IMG/VR virus record: IMGVR_UViG_3300033074_000984
Origin: a virus
Taxonomy: Duplodnaviria; Caudoviricetes
Length of the DNA stretch: 64,000 bases
Reading direction: 5' to 3' (one strand)
A program made the position numbers and the translations under genes. The notes under the pieces were generated by a model. The model did not search any database and was not told the DNA's origin. It worked only from the letters and a program-made list of their open reading frames with translations. The stretch's first letter is position 1, and every line of letters begins with the position of its first letter. This document shows positions 2,111 through 59,889 of the stretch, in pieces.

Positions 2111-4432
2111 ATGGGATTCGCGCTTAGCCCGAGCATCATTGTCACTGAGAGCGATCTCACTACGACGGTACCCGCGGTAGCGACAACCGACGCGGCGATC
2201 GCTGGCGTCTTCCATTGGGGTCCGGTAGACCAGCGAGAGCTGATCGACAGCCAGATGAACCTCAAGGAGCGCTTCGGGCCCCCGAGCAACTTCAACTACG
2301 AGACGTGGTGGACAGCCGCGAACTTTCTCGACTACGGCACGCGCGAGTACGTCGTACGCGTAGCGAACACGAGCGCCAACACGCCGTCTGAGACCTTCAG
2401 CGTCAACACTTCAGTCGCTAACGTCCTTCACATGACGGACGCTAACGCGACCTACACGCCTGTCTCTCTCGGCATCGAGACCAACATGCGCGTCTTCTGG
2501 GCGTCCAACACTGGAGCAGTCCCTCTCGACGCCGTCGTCACCGCTGTCAACAGCACCGCCGTATCTATCTCAACCAACGCTACAGTCAACAGCTCGTCTG
2601 ACGTCGGCTTCTACAGCAACGTGTCGTCTTACAACGCTCTGGCCATAGCGCCTGGCGGCCAGGTCGACAACGTCGGCGCTCAGGTTGTCAAGAACCGTGA
2701 CCATTACGAGACCAAGGACAACGCCTTCGACCTCGACCTCTACTACCTCGCGAAGTACCCCGGCGCGATCGGCAACAGCCTGCGAATCTCCGTATGCGAC
2801 AGCGCTGACGCGTACTACGCCAGCCTGTCACTCTCCAACACCATCGTCGAGGGCGCGTTCTCTGTAGACATCGGCTCCGACGTCGGCACGTTCACCTTCA
2901 CGGCCCCCACTAACGGAGCCGCTGCAAACACGCTCGCTACGACCATCATCGCCTCTATAGCGAACAACGACTACCTCGAGGTGGGTAACAGCTCGATCGG
3001 TAGACAGTACCTGAAGGTGCTCTCCACCGACAACACCCCGACCCTCAACACCTCTACCAACGTAGCGACGTTTAACGTCGAGTTCGAGGACCCGTACCGA
3101 CTGTCGTACGACTGGTCGGCGAATGACTCCATCGTTCGATACTGGGAGTTCTACGGTCTCACCGAGCTCGCGCCCGGCCAGTCGAACTTCGTCGCTGAGC
3201 GAGGCAACACGGCCGCTAACGACGAGCTGCACGTCGTAGTCGTAGACAACGACGGCGCGTTCTCCGGCACTCCAGGCACCGTCCTAGAGGTCTATCGAGG
3301 ACTGTCTCGAGCGACCGACGCGACCGCTGACAACGGGTCGTCGATCTACTACAAGGAGGTCCTTAACAAGAGCTCCAAGTACGTCTGGCTCGCGAACGAC
3401 CGAAGCAACGCGCCGAGCGCCAACGCTTGGTTGGTGGCGTCGTCCACCAACACAGAAGCGCTCGACCTCGACTTTACGCTCGGCACCGACGGCAAGCCAG
3501 AGAGCACCGTCTCTGTCGGCCTGGTCATGCAGGGCTACGACAGGTTCGCTAGCGCGGAAGACGTTGACATCTCGCTCGTCCTGCAGGGCAAGCCGCGCGG
3601 CGGCGTCGACCCGAGCACCGGCTCTGTCGAGTTCCAGCTGTTCAACTACCTGATCGACAACATCGGTGAGATCAGGAAGGACTGCGTGGTCTTCGGTTCG
3701 CCAGAGATCAACACCTGCCTCAACAACTACAACGAGGAGGCGCTGTCCATCGTCGACTGGAGAAACTCGACTCGATCGAGCTCCTACGCCGTCATGGACT
3801 CGGGCTACAAGCAGCAGTACGACAAGTACAACGACGTCTATCGCTGGATCCCGCTCAACGCTGACATGGCTGGTCTGTGCGCGCGAACTGACCAGACGAA
3901 CGACCCGTGGTGGTCGCCGGCCGGCCTTAATCGTGGCCACATCAAGAACCTGGTCACGCTGGCCTGGAACCCGCGGATGGCTCATCGAGACATCCTCTAC
4001 AAGAACGGCGTCAACCCCGTGGTGCGCTTCAACAACGAGGGCACGGTGCTCTGGGGCGACAAGACGCTCCTGGCGAAGCCGAGCGCGTTCGATCGCATCA
4101 ACGTTCGACGGCTCTTCATCGTTCTCGAGAAGGCCATCTCGACCGCCTCGAAGTACTTCCTGTTCGAGTTCAACGACCGGTTCACCCGGGAGCAGTTCAA
4201 GAACATGGTGAACCCGTACCTGAAGTTCGTTCAGAGCCGACGAGGCATCCAGGACTTCCTGGTCGTCTGCGACGAGACGAACAACACGCCCTACATCATC
4301 GACAGCAACAGCTTCGTTGCGGACATCTACATCAAGCCGAACCGAAGCATCAACTGGATCTACCTTAACTTCGTAGCCGTCGCAACCGGCATCTCCTTCG
4401 AGGAGATCGTCGGCGGCTCCAGGATCTCCTAA
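2111..4432 (+). CDS. 18: Tail sheath protein gp18
   Basis: FHWGP, PWWSPAGLNRG, GDKT..FDRINVRRLF, IYIKPNRSINWIYLNF. Confidence 0.97.
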   Translation: MGFALSPSIIVTESDLTTTVPAVATTDAAIAGVFHWGPVDQRELIDSQMNLKERFGPPSNFNYETWWTAANFLDYGTREYVVRVANTSANTPSETFSVNTSVANVLHMTDANATYTPVSLGIETNMRVFWASNTGAVPLDAVVTAVNSTAVSISTNATVNSSSDVGFYSNVSSYNALAIAPGGQVDNVGAQVVKNRDHYETKDNAFDLDLYYLAKYPGAIGNSLRISVCDSADAYYASLSLSNTIVEGAFSVDIGSDVGTFTFTAPTNGAAANTLATTIIASIANNDYLEVGNSSIGRQYLKVLSTDNTPTLNTSTNVATFNVEFEDPYRLSYDWSANDSIVRYWEFYGLTELAPGQSNFVAERGNTAANDELHVVVVDNDGAFSGTPGTVLEVYRGLSRATDATADNGSSIYYKEVLNKSSKYVWLANDRSNAPSANAWLVASSTNTEALDLDFTLGTDGKPESTVSVGLVMQGYDRFASAEDVDISLVLQGKPRGGVDPSTGSVEFQLFNYLIDNIGEIRKDCVVFGSPEINTCLNNYNEEALSIVDWRNSTRSSSYAVMDSGYKQQYDKYNDVYRWIPLNADMAGLCARTDQTNDPWWSPAGLNRGHIKNLVTLAWNPRMAHRDILYKNGVNPVVRFNNEGTVLWGDKTLLAKPSAFDRINVRRLFIVLEKAISTASKYFLFEFNDRFTREQFKNMVNPYLKFVQSRRGIQDFLVVCDETNNTPYIIDSNSFVADIYIKPNRSINWIYLNFVAVATGISFEEIVGGSRIS

Positions 4433-5131: not shown

Positions 5132-5189
5132 TCGTCTAGGCCATAGGACAGATCAGAGCCAGTAATAAGCGATCGGACAGGAGAAAAAG

Positions 5190-5753
5190 GTGCCATTTAA
5201 GATCGAAGACTTCAAGGCGCGGGGAATCCCGTACGGCGGCGCTCGTCCTGCCCTCTTCGAGGTCATCATGTCAACGCCACAGTTCGTAACTGGTGACGCG
5301 TCAAAGATCTCTTTCCAGTGCATGGCGGCTCAGATCCCGCCAGCGACTGTAGGAGTCATCGAGGTGCCGTACTTCGGCCGTAAGGCTAAGGTTGCGGGCG
5401 ATCGAGTGTTCCCGGACTGGACCATCAACGTCATCAACGACGAAGACTTCCCAGTTCGTGACATCATGGAGCAGTGGTCGAACGGCATCAACACGCTCGA
5501 GAACAACCTGCGACTGGGCGACACCATCGAGTCCTACAAGACGACGAGCGACGCGCTCGTCACGCAGTACTCCAAGAGCGGCGTCATCCTTAGGCAGTAC
5601 AAGCTGATCAGCTGCTGGCCGAACAACGTCGAGGCCATCAACCTCGACTGGGACCGCACTAACGCGATCGAGACCTTCGCGGTCACCCTGTCCTACGACT
5701 ACTGGATACTCAACAGCACCCAGGGCCTTCCCCAGGGTGACGTGATCGAGTAA
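5190..5753 (+). CDS. 19: Tail tube protein gp19
   Basis: GGARPALFEV, FGRKAKVAGDRVFPDWTINVINDEDF, F.VTLSYDYW. Confidence 0.95.
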   Translation: MPFKIEDFKARGIPYGGARPALFEVIMSTPQFVTGDASKISFQCMAAQIPPATVGVIEVPYFGRKAKVAGDRVFPDWTINVINDEDFPVRDIMEQWSNGINTLENNLRLGDTIESYKTTSDALVTQYSKSGVILRQYKLISCWPNNVEAINLDWDRTNAIETFAVTLSYDYWILNSTQGLPQGDVIE

Positions 5754-8583: not shown

Positions 8584-8837
8584 GCATCATACGACTAAAA
8601 GGAGCACAAGCGTCAGTCAACGCAACGCCTAGCAGCTTCTCCAACGCGAGCCTACTGTACGTCTACAACGGCGGCACCGTGGCTACGATCAGCGTTGTCA
8701 GCTCTGCTAACGTGGCTGTGGGGTCCATGACCGTAGGCGCTAGCAAGGACGTTCTCCTTGAAAAGGCTCCCACAGACGTCATTTCATCTAACACTGCGTC
8801 TGGCGTAGTAGCTACGCCTGTAGCCTACAGGAACTAA
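8580..8837 (+). CDS. Small hypothetical virion protein
   Basis: ORF in the late operon before gp21. Confidence 0.6.
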   Translation: MSIIRLKGAQASVNATPSSFSNASLLYVYNGGTVATISVVSSANVAVGSMTVGASKDVLLEKAPTDVISSNTASGVVATPVAYRN

Positions 8838-25875: not shown

Positions 25876-26402
25876 AGCGTCTCTTTAAACGACGCTCTTC
25901 TAACGTCTTTTCAGACCCTATCGAGGCGGTGCTTGCCAGGAGCGAGCCGTCAAAGTGGGACAAGCGGTTTCTAGAGATAGCGAAGCTCGTATCGACGTGG
26001 TCTAAGGACCCGTCGACCGGTGTCGGAGCGGTTTACGTCTCTCCAGAGAGACGTCTCCTCTCTATCGGCTACAACGGCTTTCCACGGGACATGCCAGACA
26101 ACGACTTGTTCTATCACGACCGCGACGAGAAGCTTGCTAGGACGGTGCACGCTGAGAAGAACGGCATCTACAACGCCACAGAGAACGGCGTGTCGCTGAA
26201 GGGCTCGACGCTGTACGTCTATGGGTGCCAGGTGTGCCACCTGTGCTCTCTTGGAGTCATGCAGGTCGGTGTCAAGCGAGTCGTTGTCGCGTACCCTCGA
26301 TCCAAGGTGAAGACAGAATGGCAGCAGAGTACCGAGAGAACCAGGAGCTACTTCCGGGGTGCCGGTATAGAGTACGTGGAGACGGTGATCGAAGGCGAGT
26401 GA
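25854..26402 (+). CDS. cd: dCMP deaminase
   Basis: SKDPSTGVGAV, GYNGFP, HAEKN, VCHLC; TTG start after GGAG. Confidence 0.9.
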   Translation: MGIKRVLERLFKRRSSNVFSDPIEAVLARSEPSKWDKRFLEIAKLVSTWSKDPSTGVGAVYVSPERRLLSIGYNGFPRDMPDNDLFYHDRDEKLARTVHAEKNGIYNATENGVSLKGSTLYVYGCQVCHLCSLGVMQVGVKRVVVAYPRSKVKTEWQQSTERTRSYFRGAGIEYVETVIEGE

Positions 26403-38539: not shown

Positions 38540-38613
38540 GCGGCTTTCCGACCCGGGGTCGGGCGCGGCTTTCAATCCGTAGCGGACGGGTTCGACTCCC
38601 GTAAGCCGCGCCA
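38540..38613 (+). tRNA. Atypical tRNA-like gene (8-nt anticodon loop CTTTCAAT)
   Basis: GCGGCTT/AAGCCGC acceptor + GCCA, canonical T arm, compact D arm. Confidence 0.6.
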
Positions 38614-45889: not shown

Positions 45890-46187
45890 GCCCGTTAGCT
45901 TAACGAGAGCGCCCGCTAAGCGGGAGGCGGATACTCGACGTGTCCTCGGGCTCCAGCTTCTGAGCTAGCTCAAACAGAGCACTGGGTCGTAGCCCTTAAC
46001 AGGGTCGATCTAGCGATGGGGGTCCGAACCCCCCGCTCAGAGCCATATCGGGGTAGCTTAATCCAGAGCACCGCCCTTTAAGGCGGTTGTGGAGGTGAGA
46101 GTCCTCCCCCTGATACCATCCCGAGGTAGCTTAATGAGAGCCTGTCGTGTGGCGGAGATGAAGGTGAGACCCCCTCCCTCGGGGCCA
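45890..46187 (+). ncRNA. Four tandem tRNA-like RNAs with aberrant anticodon arms (45890-45955, 45959-46045, 46047-46118, 46120-46187)
   Basis: Each has an acceptor stem + NCCA, a TAGCT..GAGC D arm and a T-like arm. Confidence 0.7.
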
Positions 46188-51550: not shown

Positions 51551-51699
51551 GTTCTCTTTACGCCGTTCTCGTGTTTTCGCGAAAACGGGCCCACAAGTAG
51601 TGTAGCTGTTGCTCCGGGGAGCGGGGACCCCTTTAAAGGGTCCCTCCTAGGTTCGACTCCTAGGCAGTGACAAGGACGCGGGAACGGCGTAAGGAGAAC
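51551..51699 (+). ncRNA. Long-stem RNA enclosing a tRNA-like domain with a UUA anticodon-like loop
   Basis: GTTCTCTTTACGCCGTTCTCG/CGGGAACGGCGTAAGGAGAAC closing stem; D, anticodon and T arms inside. Confidence 0.6.
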
Positions 51700-51700
51700 T

Positions 51701-52575
51701 GGGGCGGCATAGCGCCCTTAAAGATAAGCGAGGGTGACCTCGTAAAAGCTGGGACGCCTACGTACCAGCGCCCGAGAGGGTCTGTCTATGCAAGCCTCGT
51801 CTCGCCCCGAGAGGGGACGCTCGGTTGAAACCCGGGCGTAAGCGCGACGATGAGGACACGAGCCCGATGCTCTGGGATAGAGCCTGGCCTCTGCGAAAGC
51901 AAGCTGGGCTCGAAGCGGTTCGCAAGCCGCGCTTGTGTCGCGCAAACTCATCTAACGTGAGAGACAAGGGGTAGCTGCTAGAGTCTGAGGTTGGCGCCAA
52001 GGGCGACGCAGCAGTGATAAGGGAGGCGGCGGGGATGCACGACGCTGTCCTGACTCACGGTCCGAGTCCTGCCAAGGACGAAGACAGACGGCGTGTGGTA
52101 TTCTTGCGACCAAAAGTCGCGAGAGCTGCAGGACCAGCACGTCGTAGTAGGTTCGAGATAGATGACAAATGGAAAGTCATCTGCTGTGATAGGCAGACAA
52201 ACGGGTTCGATTCCCGCATTCTCATTCAAAACGCAAAGCCTGGTCCGACGACAAGAGTAAGACGGCAAAACCTAAGGCCTCACGGGGTAACTTAGGCGCC
52301 TGACGGTCGCAAGCTGAAGGGTGTTACTGATCAAGACCTCATAGAGACTATAGCGGTCTCGAGCTGCTCGCAAGGCAGGTGGGTTCAACGATTGGCGAGT
52401 ATCTTGTCGTGCGGGTGATACGCCACACCTTAAAAAAGGCGCCGTTGACGACGTACGAGCTCACCTGGCTCGTGGACGTAGGTGAACGCCTCAAGTGCCC
52501 CTCGTGGCCGCACCCGTGCAGGGTGGGCGATAATACCTGAAGCGTCGTCGCTCACGCCCGTAGTCTCAGGGCATT
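51701..52575 (+). ncRNA. GOLLD-like giant structured RNA (~870 nt; boundaries approximate)
   Basis: No credible ORF, dense GNRA-capped hairpins, GTGGTATT..CAAAAG..AGC hairpin and TAGTCTCAGG 3' end recalled from GOLLD; located in a tRNA cluster. Confidence 0.65.
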
Positions 52576-58257: not shown

Positions 58258-58626
58258 ATGAAAGCCATTGCTCAGTATGACAGGTTCGCTCATCCTCCAC
58301 TCATGAAGCTCTACATTCACGGGGCTCCTCACAGACGACATCACCGTGAAGTGCTTCAGCGATACAGAGACGACCTCACGCAGAGCGTTTCGAGGCAGTT
58401 GTCTCGAGAGGTCGAGCTTCCGATAGATCATCCGATCGACCTAGAGGTGGTGTTTGTCAACCCGTCATCTCCAGACCTTGACCACTTAATCGAGGCGCTG
58501 TACATGGCTCTTGATGGAAAGACGCTTAAGGGTCCGTCTGTGCTCACTGACGACAGGATAATTCAGTCGGTTAAGATGAGCAAGTACTACGCAACAGAGA
58601 AGACGAAGAGGGACGGCGTACGATGA
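58258..58626 (+). CDS. RusA-like resolvase fold protein
   Basis: PDLDHL..AL..AL, DDRII. Confidence 0.6.
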   Translation: MKAIAQYDRFAHPPLMKLYIHGAPHRRHHREVLQRYRDDLTQSVSRQLSREVELPIDHPIDLEVVFVNPSSPDLDHLIEALYMALDGKTLKGPSVLTDDRIIQSVKMSKYYATEKTKRDGVR

Positions 58627-59042
58627 TTGGTGGCGTGGTTAGGTCAGTGTTGGTTGAGGCCTTTATCGAGGCTGGTAACCTGATTAAGCTCAACGCGCGT
58701 GAGCTACGCTTCGTCGGTAAAAAGACGACTGCAGTCGATACGACTCCTTGGTGGAAGTTCTGGGCGTTAAGCGAGATCGAGTACGTCACTGAACAAGTCA
58801 TCGTCGCGGCGACGAAGGACTTCTCAGTCTCTGTAGAAGAGCGAGACGACGGATCGGCGGTCTCCGTCACGGTTGAAGACGTCGATGTCACGGCTGAGGC
58901 TGACGTCATCACTGATCTCGTTCTTGTAGACGAGAACGGAGACGAGCTCGTCTCATTTTCGCTCTGTGAGTCTTACGTGCCGCCGGCGCCTGGCAACTCT
59001 TTTGGGATGGGTGAGCCGCTCACGTGCAGCTTTCTAGTTTAA

Positions 59043-59123
59043 GGCCCCGTAACCCCCTCCGCTTCGAACGGAGAGTAAGGTAACTGGATGAGAATGCGGG
59101 TTCGACTCCCGCCGGGGTCTCCA
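59043..59123 (+). tRNA. Rearranged tRNA-Arg(TCG)-like gene
   Basis: GGCCCCG/CGGGGTC-T-CCA, CTCCG-CTTCGAA-CGGAG, T arm; D-loop-like sequence lies 3' of the anticodon arm. Confidence 0.65.
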
Positions 59124-59773
59124 ATCATGGAGGGTTTAGTTGTCTCGTTACAACGTCACTGACGTTCTTGATATCCAGATGTGTCCAGACACGAATGACG
59201 CTGGAGCCTCATCCATTCGGGGTTATCTCAAGGCGCTCCTTGAGCGTCTTCTTATCAAGGGAAACGAGTTTTCTGGAAAGCGCCCCTTCGGTAACAGCGG
59301 CTGGGAGTATGACCTCTATGCGCCAATGGTCGCTACGGGGTTCGTTACTGGCAAGCTCGACGGGAACGGTGACGTGGAAGACGTAGATGAAGCATTCGCG
59401 CTCAAGCTCTTACTCGGCGCTGTAAGGTCTCTATGAATTGAAGGGTCCGAGGGAGCTCAAGAGGTGCGTCGCTAAGAGGCGTGATCACCTCAAGGCGATC
59501 AGTTACGACTCCCTGCTGATCTTCAAGCTCGAACGTTGTAAGAAGTGGCGAAAGCAGCATCGCCGTCCTCGAGACGGCTACTTAAGGAGGCGGGATGAGC
59601 GCTATCGAGATGTCGATGAGCTTCTTTAATGACGGTGTGGGTGAGCTGACAATCAGGGACGTGAAGACGGGGGTGGAGGCCTCGATCGAGACCTCTCAAG
59701 AGTTCTCTGAAGACCAGATACTCTTTCTTCTTGACGCCTTCCCGTGCTGCAGCTATGCCAAGTACGAACTAGT

Positions 59774-59862
59774 GGAGGGTTAACCGGACAGGTGCGCCGG
59801 CACCGCCTTGAAAGCGGCAGGGAGCCCAGAGCTCTGGGGATCGAGACCTCAGCCCTCCTCCA
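59774..59862 (+). tRNA. tRNA-Ser(TGA)
   Basis: Long variable arm, CCA. Confidence 0.85.
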
Positions 59863-59889
59863 ACTTGAGAGAAGCATAAATAAGTCACC

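What the first reader, a model, noticed from the sequence alone, without database searches (positions are those of the whole stretch)
59043..59123. tRNA-Arg(UCG) with rearranged topology: D-loop sequence 3' of the anticodon arm
Seen: acceptor-TA-ACC-cc-[anticodon arm CTCCG-CTTCGAA-CGGAG]-agtaa-GGT-AACTGGAT-gagaat-[T arm]-acceptor-TCCA. ACC/GGT can form a D-stem equivalent around the anticodon arm, and AACTGGAT is a typical tRNA-Arg D loop. No other Arg tRNA was found in the window. Inference: an alternative strand connectivity that still builds the L shape and would be missed by tRNA scanners.
Basis: partly seen in the sequence, partly recalled or inferred. Interest (0 to 1): 0.72.

Follow-up and report, generated by a model that had tools for sequence, protein, structure and literature searches.

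The report
Phage arginine tRNA with rewired core
This is a real, strongly conserved phage gene for an arginine tRNA (anticodon UCG) whose D arm is split and built around the anticodon arm instead of before it, a design shared by over a hundred phage tRNA genes, mostly missed by gene finders, and not described in the papers I could search.

Summary
At 59043-59123 lie a 7-bp acceptor stem, UA, ACC, CC, a 5-bp anticodon stem with loop CUUCGAA (UCG), AGUAA, GGU, AACUGGAU, GAGAAU, a standard T arm, U73 and an encoded CCA.

ARAGORN misses it. The Rfam tRNA model reaches 31.6 bits (cut-off 29) only by deleting the D arm.

It is not a one-off or a wreck. The same layout occurs in at least 119 IMG/VR phage contigs. 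It is also in the cultured phages RHph_I1_18 (two copies), Stenotrophomonas DLP6 and Felix O1, unannotated in each. Bacterial genomes essentially lack it.

In 118 distinct sequences all stems covary. The A:U pair is not conserved.

U8, A9, the U-A-A after the helix, GG-A and the A-U before the T stem are nearly invariant.

This 161-kb T4-like phage record has no other arginine tRNA, and CGA is about a quarter of its arginine codons.

Best reading: a working arginine tRNA with a rewired core. Folding, charging and decoding are inferred, not shown.

This scan has already noted the design on other DNA (Felix O1-type phages, anticodon UCU). I re-tested that here.

The parts
59043..59049 (+). Acceptor stem, 5' strand (GGCCCCG)
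   Evidence: Pairs with 59113-59119. All 7 pairs covary in the family and 99.5% of cells are paired.
59050..59051 (+). U8-A9
   Evidence: Invariant in 118 of 118 distinct family members.
59052..59054 (+). A, then CC. The CC is the 5' strand of the short helix that encloses the anticodon arm and takes the place of the 3' strand of a D stem.
   Evidence: CC pairs with GG at 59079-80. The pairs covary as C-G, G-C, U-A and A-U. A 59052 with T 59081 can pair here but is not conserved.
59055..59056 (+). Two-nucleotide connector (CC) before the anticodon stem
   Evidence: Variable in the family (C, G or A). The second base shows weak covariation with the base 3 nt before the T stem. This is unresolved.
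59057..59073 (+). Anticodon arm CTCCG-CTTCGAA-CGGAG, anticodon UCG at 59064-59066
   Evidence: A 5-bp stem in which all pairs covary. The loop has 7 nt with U33 and A37.
59074..59078 (+). Five-nucleotide connector AGUAA
   Evidence: The first two bases are A and G in 101 of 118 members. The rest vary.
59079..59081 (+). GG, the 3' strand of the enclosing helix, followed by an invariant U
   Evidence: Covaries with 59053-54. The U is invariant in 118 of 118.
59082..59089 (+). D-loop-like element AACUGGAU (equivalents of A14, A15, G18, G19 and A20)
   Evidence: A 118/118, A 115/118, G 117/118, G 112/118, A 109/118. The mapping to canonical positions is inferred.
59090..59095 (+). Linker GAGAAU to the T stem, ending in a conserved A-U
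   Evidence: The last two bases are A 118/118 and U 115/118. In long-form relatives an extra hairpin with a GNRA loop is inserted here.
59096..59112 (+). T arm GCGGG-TTCGACT-CCCGC
   Evidence: Standard 5-bp stem and a TTCGA loop. Three to four of the stem pairs covary.
59113..59123 (+). Acceptor stem 3' strand CGGGGTC, discriminator U, encoded CCA
   Evidence: Most relatives also encode CCA.

Best explanation
The element is a functional phage gene for tRNA-Arg(UCG). It belongs to a phage-restricted structural class of tRNAs with a rewired core.

The acceptor/T-arm half and the anticodon arm are ordinary. The difference lies in the D arm. After U8-A9 the chain runs straight down a short helix into the anticodon stem. 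The partner strand of that helix and the D-loop sequence (U-AAYUGGA) come only after the anticodon arm, just before the T arm.

I infer the following steps:
- The short helix stacks on the anticodon stem, as a D stem does.
- The relocated loop reaches the T loop through its GG.
- U8 and the first A, and the second A and the U before the T stem, form the usual core pairs.
- The A after GG is presented to ArgRS as A20 would be.
- Together with C35 and G36 this gives arginine charging.
- The tRNA then reads CGA (and CGG), the codon that most bacteria read only through inosine and that this phage uses heavily.

Shown here: the gene's conservation, the covariation of all four helices, the invariance of the core nucleotides, its restriction to phage tRNA clusters, and its place in the phage's tRNA set.

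Inferred only: transcription and processing, the L-shaped fold, charging and decoding.
For: 1. A homologue in Rhizobium phage RHph_I1_18 has anticodon ACG, fully compensated acceptor and T stems, and an identical core.

2. A family pattern finds at least 119 IMG/VR contigs. In 79 unique sequences nearly all have perfect 7/5/5-bp stems.

3. Covariation on 78 MAFFT-aligned sequences: 96.7% of cells are paired, 0 of 500 shuffles reach the observed values, and slid controls give 35-47%. The enclosing helix reads 11:38 as CG 58, GC 15, UA 5 and 12:37 as CG 63, AU 9, GC 4, GU 1, other 1. The result holds on 118 model-aligned sequences.

4. The core letters are nearly invariant. The A after GG corresponds to A20, the main bacterial arginine determinant alongside C35 and G/U36 (PMC9976931).

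5. Of 118 members, 109 with a standard 7-nt loop carry arginine anticodons: ACG 59, UCG 21, UCU 20, CCU 6, GCG 2, CCG 1. One more UCG-type copy has a duplicated loop.

6. One phage contig (L008) has four such genes, with anticodons ACG, UCG, UCU and CCU, and no ARAGORN-called arginine tRNA.

7. Where a canonical NCG arginine tRNA lies in the same locus, its anticodon differs from the rewired one in 21 of 22 loci.

8. 111 of 122 family genes lie within 500 nt of another tRNA gene.

9. Phage restriction: the same pattern in 596 Gb of bacterial and archaeal genomes gives 13 hits. Only 2-3 are true members, and the two that could be parsed lie in dense tRNA arrays of MAG contigs.

10. This phage record has no other arginine tRNA. 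CGA is 23-26% of its arginine codons and the top arginine codon of the sheath gene.

11. In soil-metagenome relatives about 4% divergent over 1.6 kb, none of the 40 listed differences falls in 59030-59152; a further 21 differences were not displayed.
Against: - There is no expression, processing or charging evidence of any kind.
- The enclosing helix has only two reliably paired positions, which is weak for a D-stem substitute.
- The mapping to U8:A14, A15:U48 and G18G19 contacts cannot be tested by covariation, because those letters never vary.
- The discriminator is U in half the family. The review's table lists U73 besides A/G73 for bacteria, but A or G is the usual case.
- Stenotrophomonas phage DLP6 carries an annotated canonical tRNA-Arg(ACG) as well as the rewired ACG gene. 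So the rewired gene is not always needed to fill a decoding gap and may do something else.
- Seven members carry Ile-type anticodons and one carries UCA, so the design is not strictly tied to arginine.
- The folding energy of the single sequence is no better than that of shuffles (z = -0.55).
Confidence: 0.77

Rival explanations
1. It is a working arginine tRNA, but not a topologically re-created D arm. On this view it is a D-armless tRNA whose anticodon stem is lengthened by two pairs beyond an internal loop. A long single-stranded variable region happens to keep an arginine-type GGA motif for ArgRS. The molecule would be flexible, like mitochondrial D-armless tRNAs, with no canonical elbow.
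For: The Rfam alignment treats it exactly so, with the D arm deleted and a 19-nt variable insertion. RNAalifold predicts only the three classic stems. Only 2 pairs of the enclosing helix are conserved.
Against: The T loop (TTCGA) and the GG of the relocated element are nearly invariant, as expected if the elbow contact is kept. U8, A9, the U-A-A and the A-U before the T stem are invariant too. A floppy linker would not need that. Mitochondrial D-armless tRNAs have degenerate T loops (established knowledge; PMC4013460 and PMC7609411 were listed or read).
Confidence: 0.12
2. It is a tRNA look-alike that is not used for decoding. It might be a decoy or sponge for a host tRNA-targeting defence nuclease, a tRNA-modifying enzyme or ArgRS, or a processing or regulatory element within the phage tRNA cluster.
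For: DLP6 has a canonical tRNA-Arg(ACG) as well. The same window holds several tRNA-shaped RNAs that cannot decode (Rfam hit 46047-46115 with a 6-nt loop; earlier notes). Phage tRNAs are known counter-measures to tRNA-cleaving defences (PMC12409363, abstract seen).
Against: The anticodon loop is a perfect 7-nt loop with U33 and A37. Anticodons are almost only arginine ones and complement the canonical arginine tRNAs in the same locus in 21 of 22 loci. One phage has a full four-anticodon set in this format. This phage record has no other arginine tRNA. Most members encode CCA.
Confidence: 0.08
3. It is a decaying tRNA pseudogene, or a chance tRNA-like arrangement produced by a rearrangement in the tRNA cluster.
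For: The Rfam score is low and there is no ARAGORN call. One relative (L053) has a 9-nt duplication in the anticodon loop.
Against: There are 118 distinct sequences with 99% of stem cells paired and hundreds of double changes. The core letters are invariant. No listed difference falls in the gene among the 40 shown (21 more not displayed) for strain relatives that differ at about 4% in the flanks. There were 0 chance matches in shuffles.
Confidence: 0.01

Closest known systems
Canonical bacterial and phage tRNA-Arg (class I cloverleaf, Rfam RF00005), e.g. tRNA-Arg(ICG) and tRNA-Arg(UCG)
   Same: A 7-bp acceptor stem, a 5-bp T stem with a TTCGA loop, a 5-bp anticodon stem with loop CU-NCG-AA, an arginine-type D-loop motif with GG-A, and an encoded CCA. 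Total length is 78-81 nt. It is found in phage tRNA clusters. It scores just above the Rfam cut-off.
   Different: There is no D hairpin between the acceptor and anticodon stems; only 7 nt lie there. One strand of the short D-stem-like helix lies 5' of the anticodon arm. The other strand and the D-loop sequence lie 3' of it, so the helix encloses the anticodon arm.
Metazoan mitochondrial D-armless tRNAs, e.g. mt-tRNA-Ser(AGY) and nematode mt-tRNA-Ser (PMC4013460, PMC9427863, PMC7609411)
   Same: No D hairpin and a short connector between the acceptor and anticodon stems. They are still used in translation.
   Different: Those tRNAs lose the D-loop sequence altogether and have degenerate T loops and flexible shapes. 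Here the D-loop sequence is kept but relocated, the T loop is fully canonical, and the setting is bacteriophages with standard bacterial translation.
Class II tRNAs with a long variable arm (Leu, Ser, bacterial Tyr)
   Same: Extra nucleotides lie between the anticodon arm and the T arm. Long-form relatives, including the DLP6 gene, even carry a 4-5-bp hairpin with a GNRA loop there.
   Different: Class II tRNAs keep a normal D arm, and their extra arm is not a D-loop substitute. In the short form found in this window the extra segment has no hairpin.
Permuted and split tRNA genes (Cyanidioschyzon merolae permuted genes, Nanoarchaeum split genes) and allo-tRNAs with 8/4 or 9/3 acceptor branches (PMC5389517)
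   Same: They are natural departures from the standard order or dimensions of tRNA elements. Some were found in metagenomes and phages.
   Different: Permuted and split genes give a canonical mature tRNA after processing. Here the acceptor ends and CCA are at the gene's termini, so no processing route restores the normal order. Allo-tRNAs change stem lengths, not the order of D-arm strands.
The same design reported earlier in this scan for tRNA-Arg(UCU) of Felix O1-type phages (AI notes e1-232865, e1-241338, e1-124062, e1-282655, e1-238319)
   Same: The same enclosing helix and relocated loop. My model, built only from NCG members, hits Felix O1 at 25951-26029 with 47.4 bits, where no tRNA is annotated and the match runs under the start of the annotated HNH endonuclease CDS.
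   Different: This window carries the UCG member, in a T4-like phage of 57% G+C. The Felix O1 gene has a 9-nt instead of a 5-nt connector after the anticodon stem and a different loop variant (AAGUGGA).

Membership tests
tRNA (Rfam RF00005, canonical cloverleaf) | Score at or above the curated gathering threshold | tested here: met
   31.6 bits against 29, reached only with the D arm deleted and a 19-nt insertion.
tRNA (Rfam RF00005, canonical cloverleaf) | Acceptor stem of 7 bp, T arm of 5 bp with a T-psi-C-type loop, anticodon arm of 5 bp with a 7-nt loop, U33 and a purine at 37 | tested here: met
   Seen in the sequence. All three stems covary.
tRNA (Rfam RF00005, canonical cloverleaf) | D hairpin (positions 10-25) between the acceptor and anticodon stems | tested here: not met
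   Only 7 nt (UAACCCC) lie between the two stems. ARAGORN default, -i and mitochondrial modes do not call it; only the relaxed -ps mode reports an over-long Arg(tcg).
Bacterial tRNA-Arg identity set | A20 in the D loop, C35, G36 or U36, and discriminator A/G73 (the review's table also lists U73) | tested here: inconclusive
   C35 and G36 are present. An A directly after GG is conserved in 109 of 118 members, but its equivalence to A20 rests on an inferred fold. The discriminator is U. The identity set is taken from PMC9976931. Charging was not tested.
Rewired-core phage tRNA family (defined here by model R1 and alignment A2) | U8-A9; a 2-bp covarying helix enclosing the anticodon arm; an invariant U-A-A-Y-U-G-G-A element 3' of the anticodon arm; A-U before a canonical T arm | tested here: met
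   The window gene scores 93.3 bits, while ordinary tRNAs score 34 bits or less. All listed letters are present.
Mitochondrial-type D-armless tRNA | Loss of D-loop sequence and of the D-loop/T-loop contact, with a degenerate T loop | tested here: not met
   The D-loop-like element and the TTCGA T loop are nearly invariant. ARAGORN's mitochondrial modes do not call the gene.
Permuted or intron-containing tRNA gene | Processing (circularisation or splicing) yields a canonical order of elements | tested here: not met
   The acceptor strands and CCA are at the two ends of the gene. No excision of a contiguous segment puts the D-loop sequence before the anticodon arm (reasoning).

The most novel reading that the evidence does not exclude
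The rewired core is an adaptation, not a neutral oddity. On this reading phages keep arginine tRNAs (and a few Ile-type ones) in a shape that ArgRS, EF-Tu and the ribosome still accept. A tRNA-targeting agent that reads the normal D arm or core would not accept it. That agent could be a host defence nuclease or toxin, or the phage's own host-tRNA-degrading activity. The phage's arginine decoding would then survive when host tRNA-Arg is destroyed. This would be a structural route of immune evasion, distinct from the known anticodon-loop substitutions.
Probability: 0.18. Interest if true: 0.92.

Novelty: new variant of a known kind. Interest (0 to 1): 0.8.

Why it matters
The cloverleaf order of tRNA elements is one of the most constant features in biology. 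Outside mitochondria, known exceptions change arm lengths or lose arms. None is known to move half of the D arm to the other side of the anticodon arm.

A conserved, covarying family of this kind in more than a hundred phages would show three things:
- The L shape can be built with a different strand connectivity.
- The bacterial translation apparatus presumably accepts such a tRNA.
- Standard annotation systematically under-counts phage tRNAs. All four genes I checked in GenBank phage records are unannotated, and here the phage's only arginine tRNA was invisible to ARAGORN.

It also gives a natural test case for what ArgRS, RNase P, EF-Tu and tRNA-targeting defence systems really need from the tRNA core. 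It could serve as a scaffold for engineered orthogonal tRNAs.

Tried and rejected
- **DNA similarity.** Megablast of the 2.2-kb surroundings against cultured phages found no match. The context is not conserved at the DNA level; only the tRNA itself matches.
- **A canonical cloverleaf with another anticodon.** Rejected. Only 7 nt separate the acceptor and anticodon stems, and the 22 nt after the anticodon arm form no 5-bp/7-nt arm.
- **Pair A59052:T59081 as a conserved third pair.** Rejected on family data: 47 of 78 sequences are unpaired there.
- **A pair between the connector C and the invariant G after the anticodon stem** (present in the single-sequence MFE fold). It is not kept in members where that position is G.
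- **A candidate tertiary pair** between the base just before the anticodon stem and the base 3 nt before the T stem (C:G 21-25, G:C 18-20, C:A 36-50). It cannot be separated from clade effects and is left unresolved.
- **ARAGORN in mitochondrial, intron and low-threshold modes.** No call, or an over-long 95-nt call.
- **Single-sequence folding energy.** Not informative.
- **Promoter and terminator scan.** Nothing decisive.
- **Sequencing runs.** No RNA holder listed, so expression could not be examined.
- **Literature.** Eight full-text searches, the 2020 review of non-canonical tRNAs and the 2023 identity review gave no description of this architecture.
- **Other phages.** T4, Caulobacter phage Cr30, Sinorhizobium phage phiM12 and Pelagibacter phage HTVC008M have no member.
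- **Pseudogene, intron, permuted-gene and attachment-site readings.** Considered and rejected, as set out under the rival explanations and membership tests.

Full report
**1. What is in the sequence**

- GGCCCCG, UA, ACC, CC
- CUCCG-CUUCGAA-CGGAG (anticodon UCG)
- AGUAA, GGU, AACUGGAU, GAGAAU
- GCGGG-UUCGACU-CCCGC
- CGGGGUC, U, CCA

The gene starts on the base after the stop codon of a 139-codon ORF (58623-59042). A ribosome-binding site and the next ORF follow it. It lies in a 25-kb stretch with more than 20 tRNA genes and a GOLLD RNA.

ARAGORN does not call it in default, intron or mitochondrial modes; only the relaxed -ps setting gives an over-long 95-nt Arg(tcg) call. The Rfam tRNA model passes its cut-off at 31.6 bits against 29. 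It does so only by deleting the 15 D-arm positions and inserting 19 nt in the variable region.

**2. The host genome**

The window is part of a 161-kb virus record that is 95% complete and 56.6% G+C. It has T4-type portal, major capsid and sheath genes. Its nearest cultured relatives are Stenotrophomonas phage DLP6, Caulobacter phage Cr30 and Rhizobium phage RHph_I1_18, at 45-49% sheath identity.

ARAGORN finds 23 tRNAs in the whole record, none for arginine. The two further Rfam tRNA hits in the window are a Leu(CAG)-type gene and a tRNA look-alike with a 6-nt loop. So this gene is the only arginine tRNA candidate in the record.

**3. Relatives**

blastn found one cultured-phage homologue, in RHph_I1_18. 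It is unannotated and sits between tRNA-Ile and tRNA-Phe. Its acceptor stem (GCACACG/CGUGUGC) and T stem are entirely different from the window's but fully paired. Its anticodon is ACG, and the core is almost letter-identical.

A UCG-only scan found 24 contigs, 22 of them already among the 119, so the strict pattern probably matches about 130 contigs. The 123 parsed matches collapse to 79 unique sequences, nearly all with perfect 7/5/5-bp stems.

The same pattern in 596 Gb of bacterial and archaeal genomes gave 13 hits. Ten are chance matches with no stems. Two, and probably a third cut by a contig end, are true members. The two complete ones sit in dense tRNA arrays on MAG contigs. The family is therefore essentially confined to phages.

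**4. Structure tests**

- 96.7% of cells are paired.
- 0 of 500 shuffles reach any of the observed measures.
- Sliding the partners by 1-3 columns drops pairing to 35-47%.

For the helix that encloses the anticodon arm, the two inner pairs covary cleanly:
- Pair 11:38 reads C-G 58, G-C 15, U-A 5.
- Pair 12:37 reads C-G 63, A-U 9, G-C 4, G-U 1, one mismatch.

The outer pair (A:U in the window) is not conserved, being unpaired in 47 of 78 sequences.

I built a covariance model from A1 (R1). It separates the family (42-98 bits) from ordinary tRNAs (34 bits or less). It brought in more distant members.

On 118 distinct sequences aligned to the model, the two pairs read C-G 90, G-C 17, U-A 9, A-U 2 and C-G 76, G-C 22, A-U 14, U-A 4, G-U 1, one mismatch. 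That alignment leans towards the model's structure, so one search is the independent count.

RNAalifold on A1 recovers only the three classic stems. The single-sequence minimum-energy fold does include ACC/GGU.

**5. Invariant letters**

Across the 118 sequences:
- U8 and A9 are invariant.
- The U after the helix and the next A are invariant.
- The following A is present in 115, the two G's in 117 and 112, and the A after them in 109.
- The A-U just before the T stem is present in 118 and 115.
- The T loop is TTCGA throughout A1.

These are the letters that, in a standard tRNA, form U8:A14, R15:Y48 and G18G19 with the T loop, and that give A20 in tRNA-Arg. A20, C35 and G/U36 are the main bacterial arginine determinants (PMC9976931).

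Assigning these roles here is inference. Invariant letters cannot covary, and no structure tool for RNA was available.

**6. Topology**

In a standard tRNA the chain runs 8-9, up one strand of the D stem, round the D loop, down the other strand, and into the anticodon stem.

Here the chain goes from 8-9 directly down a strand into the anticodon stem. After the anticodon arm and a 5-nt connector it goes up the partner strand into the D-loop-like element. A 5-9-nt linker then leads to the T stem.

The helix is thus an extension of the anticodon stem across a 2-by-5 internal loop. That geometry can place the loop element at the elbow.

Long-form relatives, including the DLP6 gene, insert a 4-5-bp hairpin with a GNRA loop in the final linker. 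Its sequence changes while its pairing is kept.

**7. Evidence that it decodes**

- Of the 118 members, 109 with a standard 7-nt loop carry arginine anticodons: ACG 59, UCG 21, UCU 20, CCU 6, GCG 2, CCG 1. A further UCG-type copy (L053) has a duplicated loop.
- 111 of 122 genes lie within 500 nt of another tRNA gene. ARAGORN calls only 2 of the 122.
- Where a canonical NCG arginine tRNA lies in the same locus, its anticodon differs from the rewired one in 21 of 22 loci.
- One contig (L008) has four rewired genes (ACG, UCG, UCU, CCU) and no arginine gene called by ARAGORN.
- In this phage CGA makes up 23% of arginine codons in a crude ORF set, and 26% (77 of 299) in nine long genes, five of them with Pfam matches. 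It is the commonest arginine codon of the sheath gene.
- Most bacteria read CGA only through inosine-34 tRNA-Arg (established knowledge). A UCG tRNA is therefore a plausible gain.

**8. Evidence that complicates this**

- DLP6 has annotated canonical arginine tRNAs for ACG, CCG, CCU and UCU as well as the unannotated rewired ACG gene. The rewired gene is therefore sometimes redundant.
- Seven members have GAU or UAU anticodons, several with GGUU in place of GGA. One has UCA.
- There is no expression evidence.

**9. Population data**

No RNA run is listed for this DNA.

Contigs of two soil metagenomes carry a relative with 62 differences over the 1601 bases laid. None of the 40 listed differences lies between 59030 and 59152; 21 further differences were not shown.

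In the same runs a second contig of nearly the same depth (455 vs 446.5, 24.7 vs 22.6, 8.5 vs 9.3) shares 59080-59123. It is preceded by ...UA-ACG-UC-GCCGU-CUUCUAA-GCGGU-AGAAA-C, which is a rewired tRNA-Arg(UCU) paralogue. It is not in the 161-kb record, whose end lies just beyond the window. That it belongs to the same phage is inferred from depth alone.

**10. Annotation and literature**

The four genes I checked in GenBank phage records are all unannotated: RHph_I1_18 twice, DLP6, and Felix O1. In Felix O1 the gene is overlapped by the annotated start of an HNH endonuclease ORF.

Eight full-text searches and two reviews gave no description of such an architecture. Rfam has no separate family for it.

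Earlier AI notes of this same scan report the design for tRNA-Arg(UCU) of Felix O1-type phages. I treated these as leads. I confirmed the Felix O1 gene independently with a model built only from NCG members.

**11. Verdict**

The gene is best read as a working tRNA-Arg(UCG) of a phage-restricted class with a rewired core. It is a new variant of a known kind of molecule.

Why phages keep this design is open. Evasion of tRNA-targeting defences or toxins is the most interesting possibility that the evidence does not exclude, and I hold it at low probability.

Noticed in passing
window 59080-59123 and 59835-59864: In the metagenome runs that hold this phage, a separate 3.3-kb contig of nearly the same depth shares the 3' 44 nt of the gene. 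It is preceded by sequence that parses as a rewired tRNA-Arg(UCU). It also shares a 30-nt stretch at 59835-59864. This is probably a paralogue in the part of the genome missing from the 161-kb record.
   Followed up: partly
L083:9034-9110, L142:4121-4197, 5182-5262 and 5269-5347, L049:4010-4090 and 4104-4183, L039:2428-2504: Seven genes share the rewired core but carry GAU or UAU (isoleucine-type) anticodons. Several have GGUU instead of GGA in the relocated loop, which recalls the U20/U21 isoleucine determinants. The design is therefore not limited to arginine.
   Followed up: partly
L140:440-527: A family member has anticodon UCA, one change from UCG. It would read UGA stop codons if functional.
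   Followed up: no
L053:2260-2346: A family member has a 9-nt duplication inside the anticodon loop (CTTCGAAACTTTCGAA). It is probably a damaged copy.
   Followed up: no
L008 (IMGVR_UViG_3300035661_000143): 1601-1676, 1742-1819, 2493-2571, 8617-8694: Four rewired arginine tRNA genes (CCU, UCU, ACG, UCG) lie in one phage contig, and ARAGORN calls no arginine tRNA there.
   Followed up: yes
NC_005282.1 25951-26029 (L168); KU682439.2 111158-111247 (L156); MN988519.1 15122-15199 and 87047-87125: Family members in Felix O1, DLP6 and RHph_I1_18 are all unannotated. In Felix O1 the annotated HNH endonuclease ORF starts inside the tRNA gene, so its start is probably mis-set. In RHph_I1_18 the locus tag EVB91_035 is skipped at exactly this place.
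   Followed up: partly
window 52088-52572: A GOLLD RNA (Rfam RF02032, 154.3 bits against a cut-off of 150) sits inside the tRNA cluster, directly before tRNA-Val(GAC).
   Followed up: no
window 38540-38613, 51602-51672, 46047-46115: Other odd tRNA-like genes in the window. ARAGORN reports one with a four-base anticodon (ttca) and one with an ochre anticodon (tta). Rfam tRNA hits one with a 6-nt anticodon loop.
   Followed up: no
L002 2443-2766 and 2836-2909 (RHph_I1_18): ARAGORN reports a permuted tmRNA-like gene with tag ANDNSVQVRLAA and a tRNA with a four-base anticodon (tatg) just upstream of the tRNA cluster of the Rhizobium phage.
   Followed up: no
L124 2559-2649, L008 9282-9372, KU682439.2 104738-104829: Phage tRNA-Ile(UAU) genes of about 91 nt recur in these clusters. 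That is unusually long for an isoleucine tRNA.
   Followed up: no
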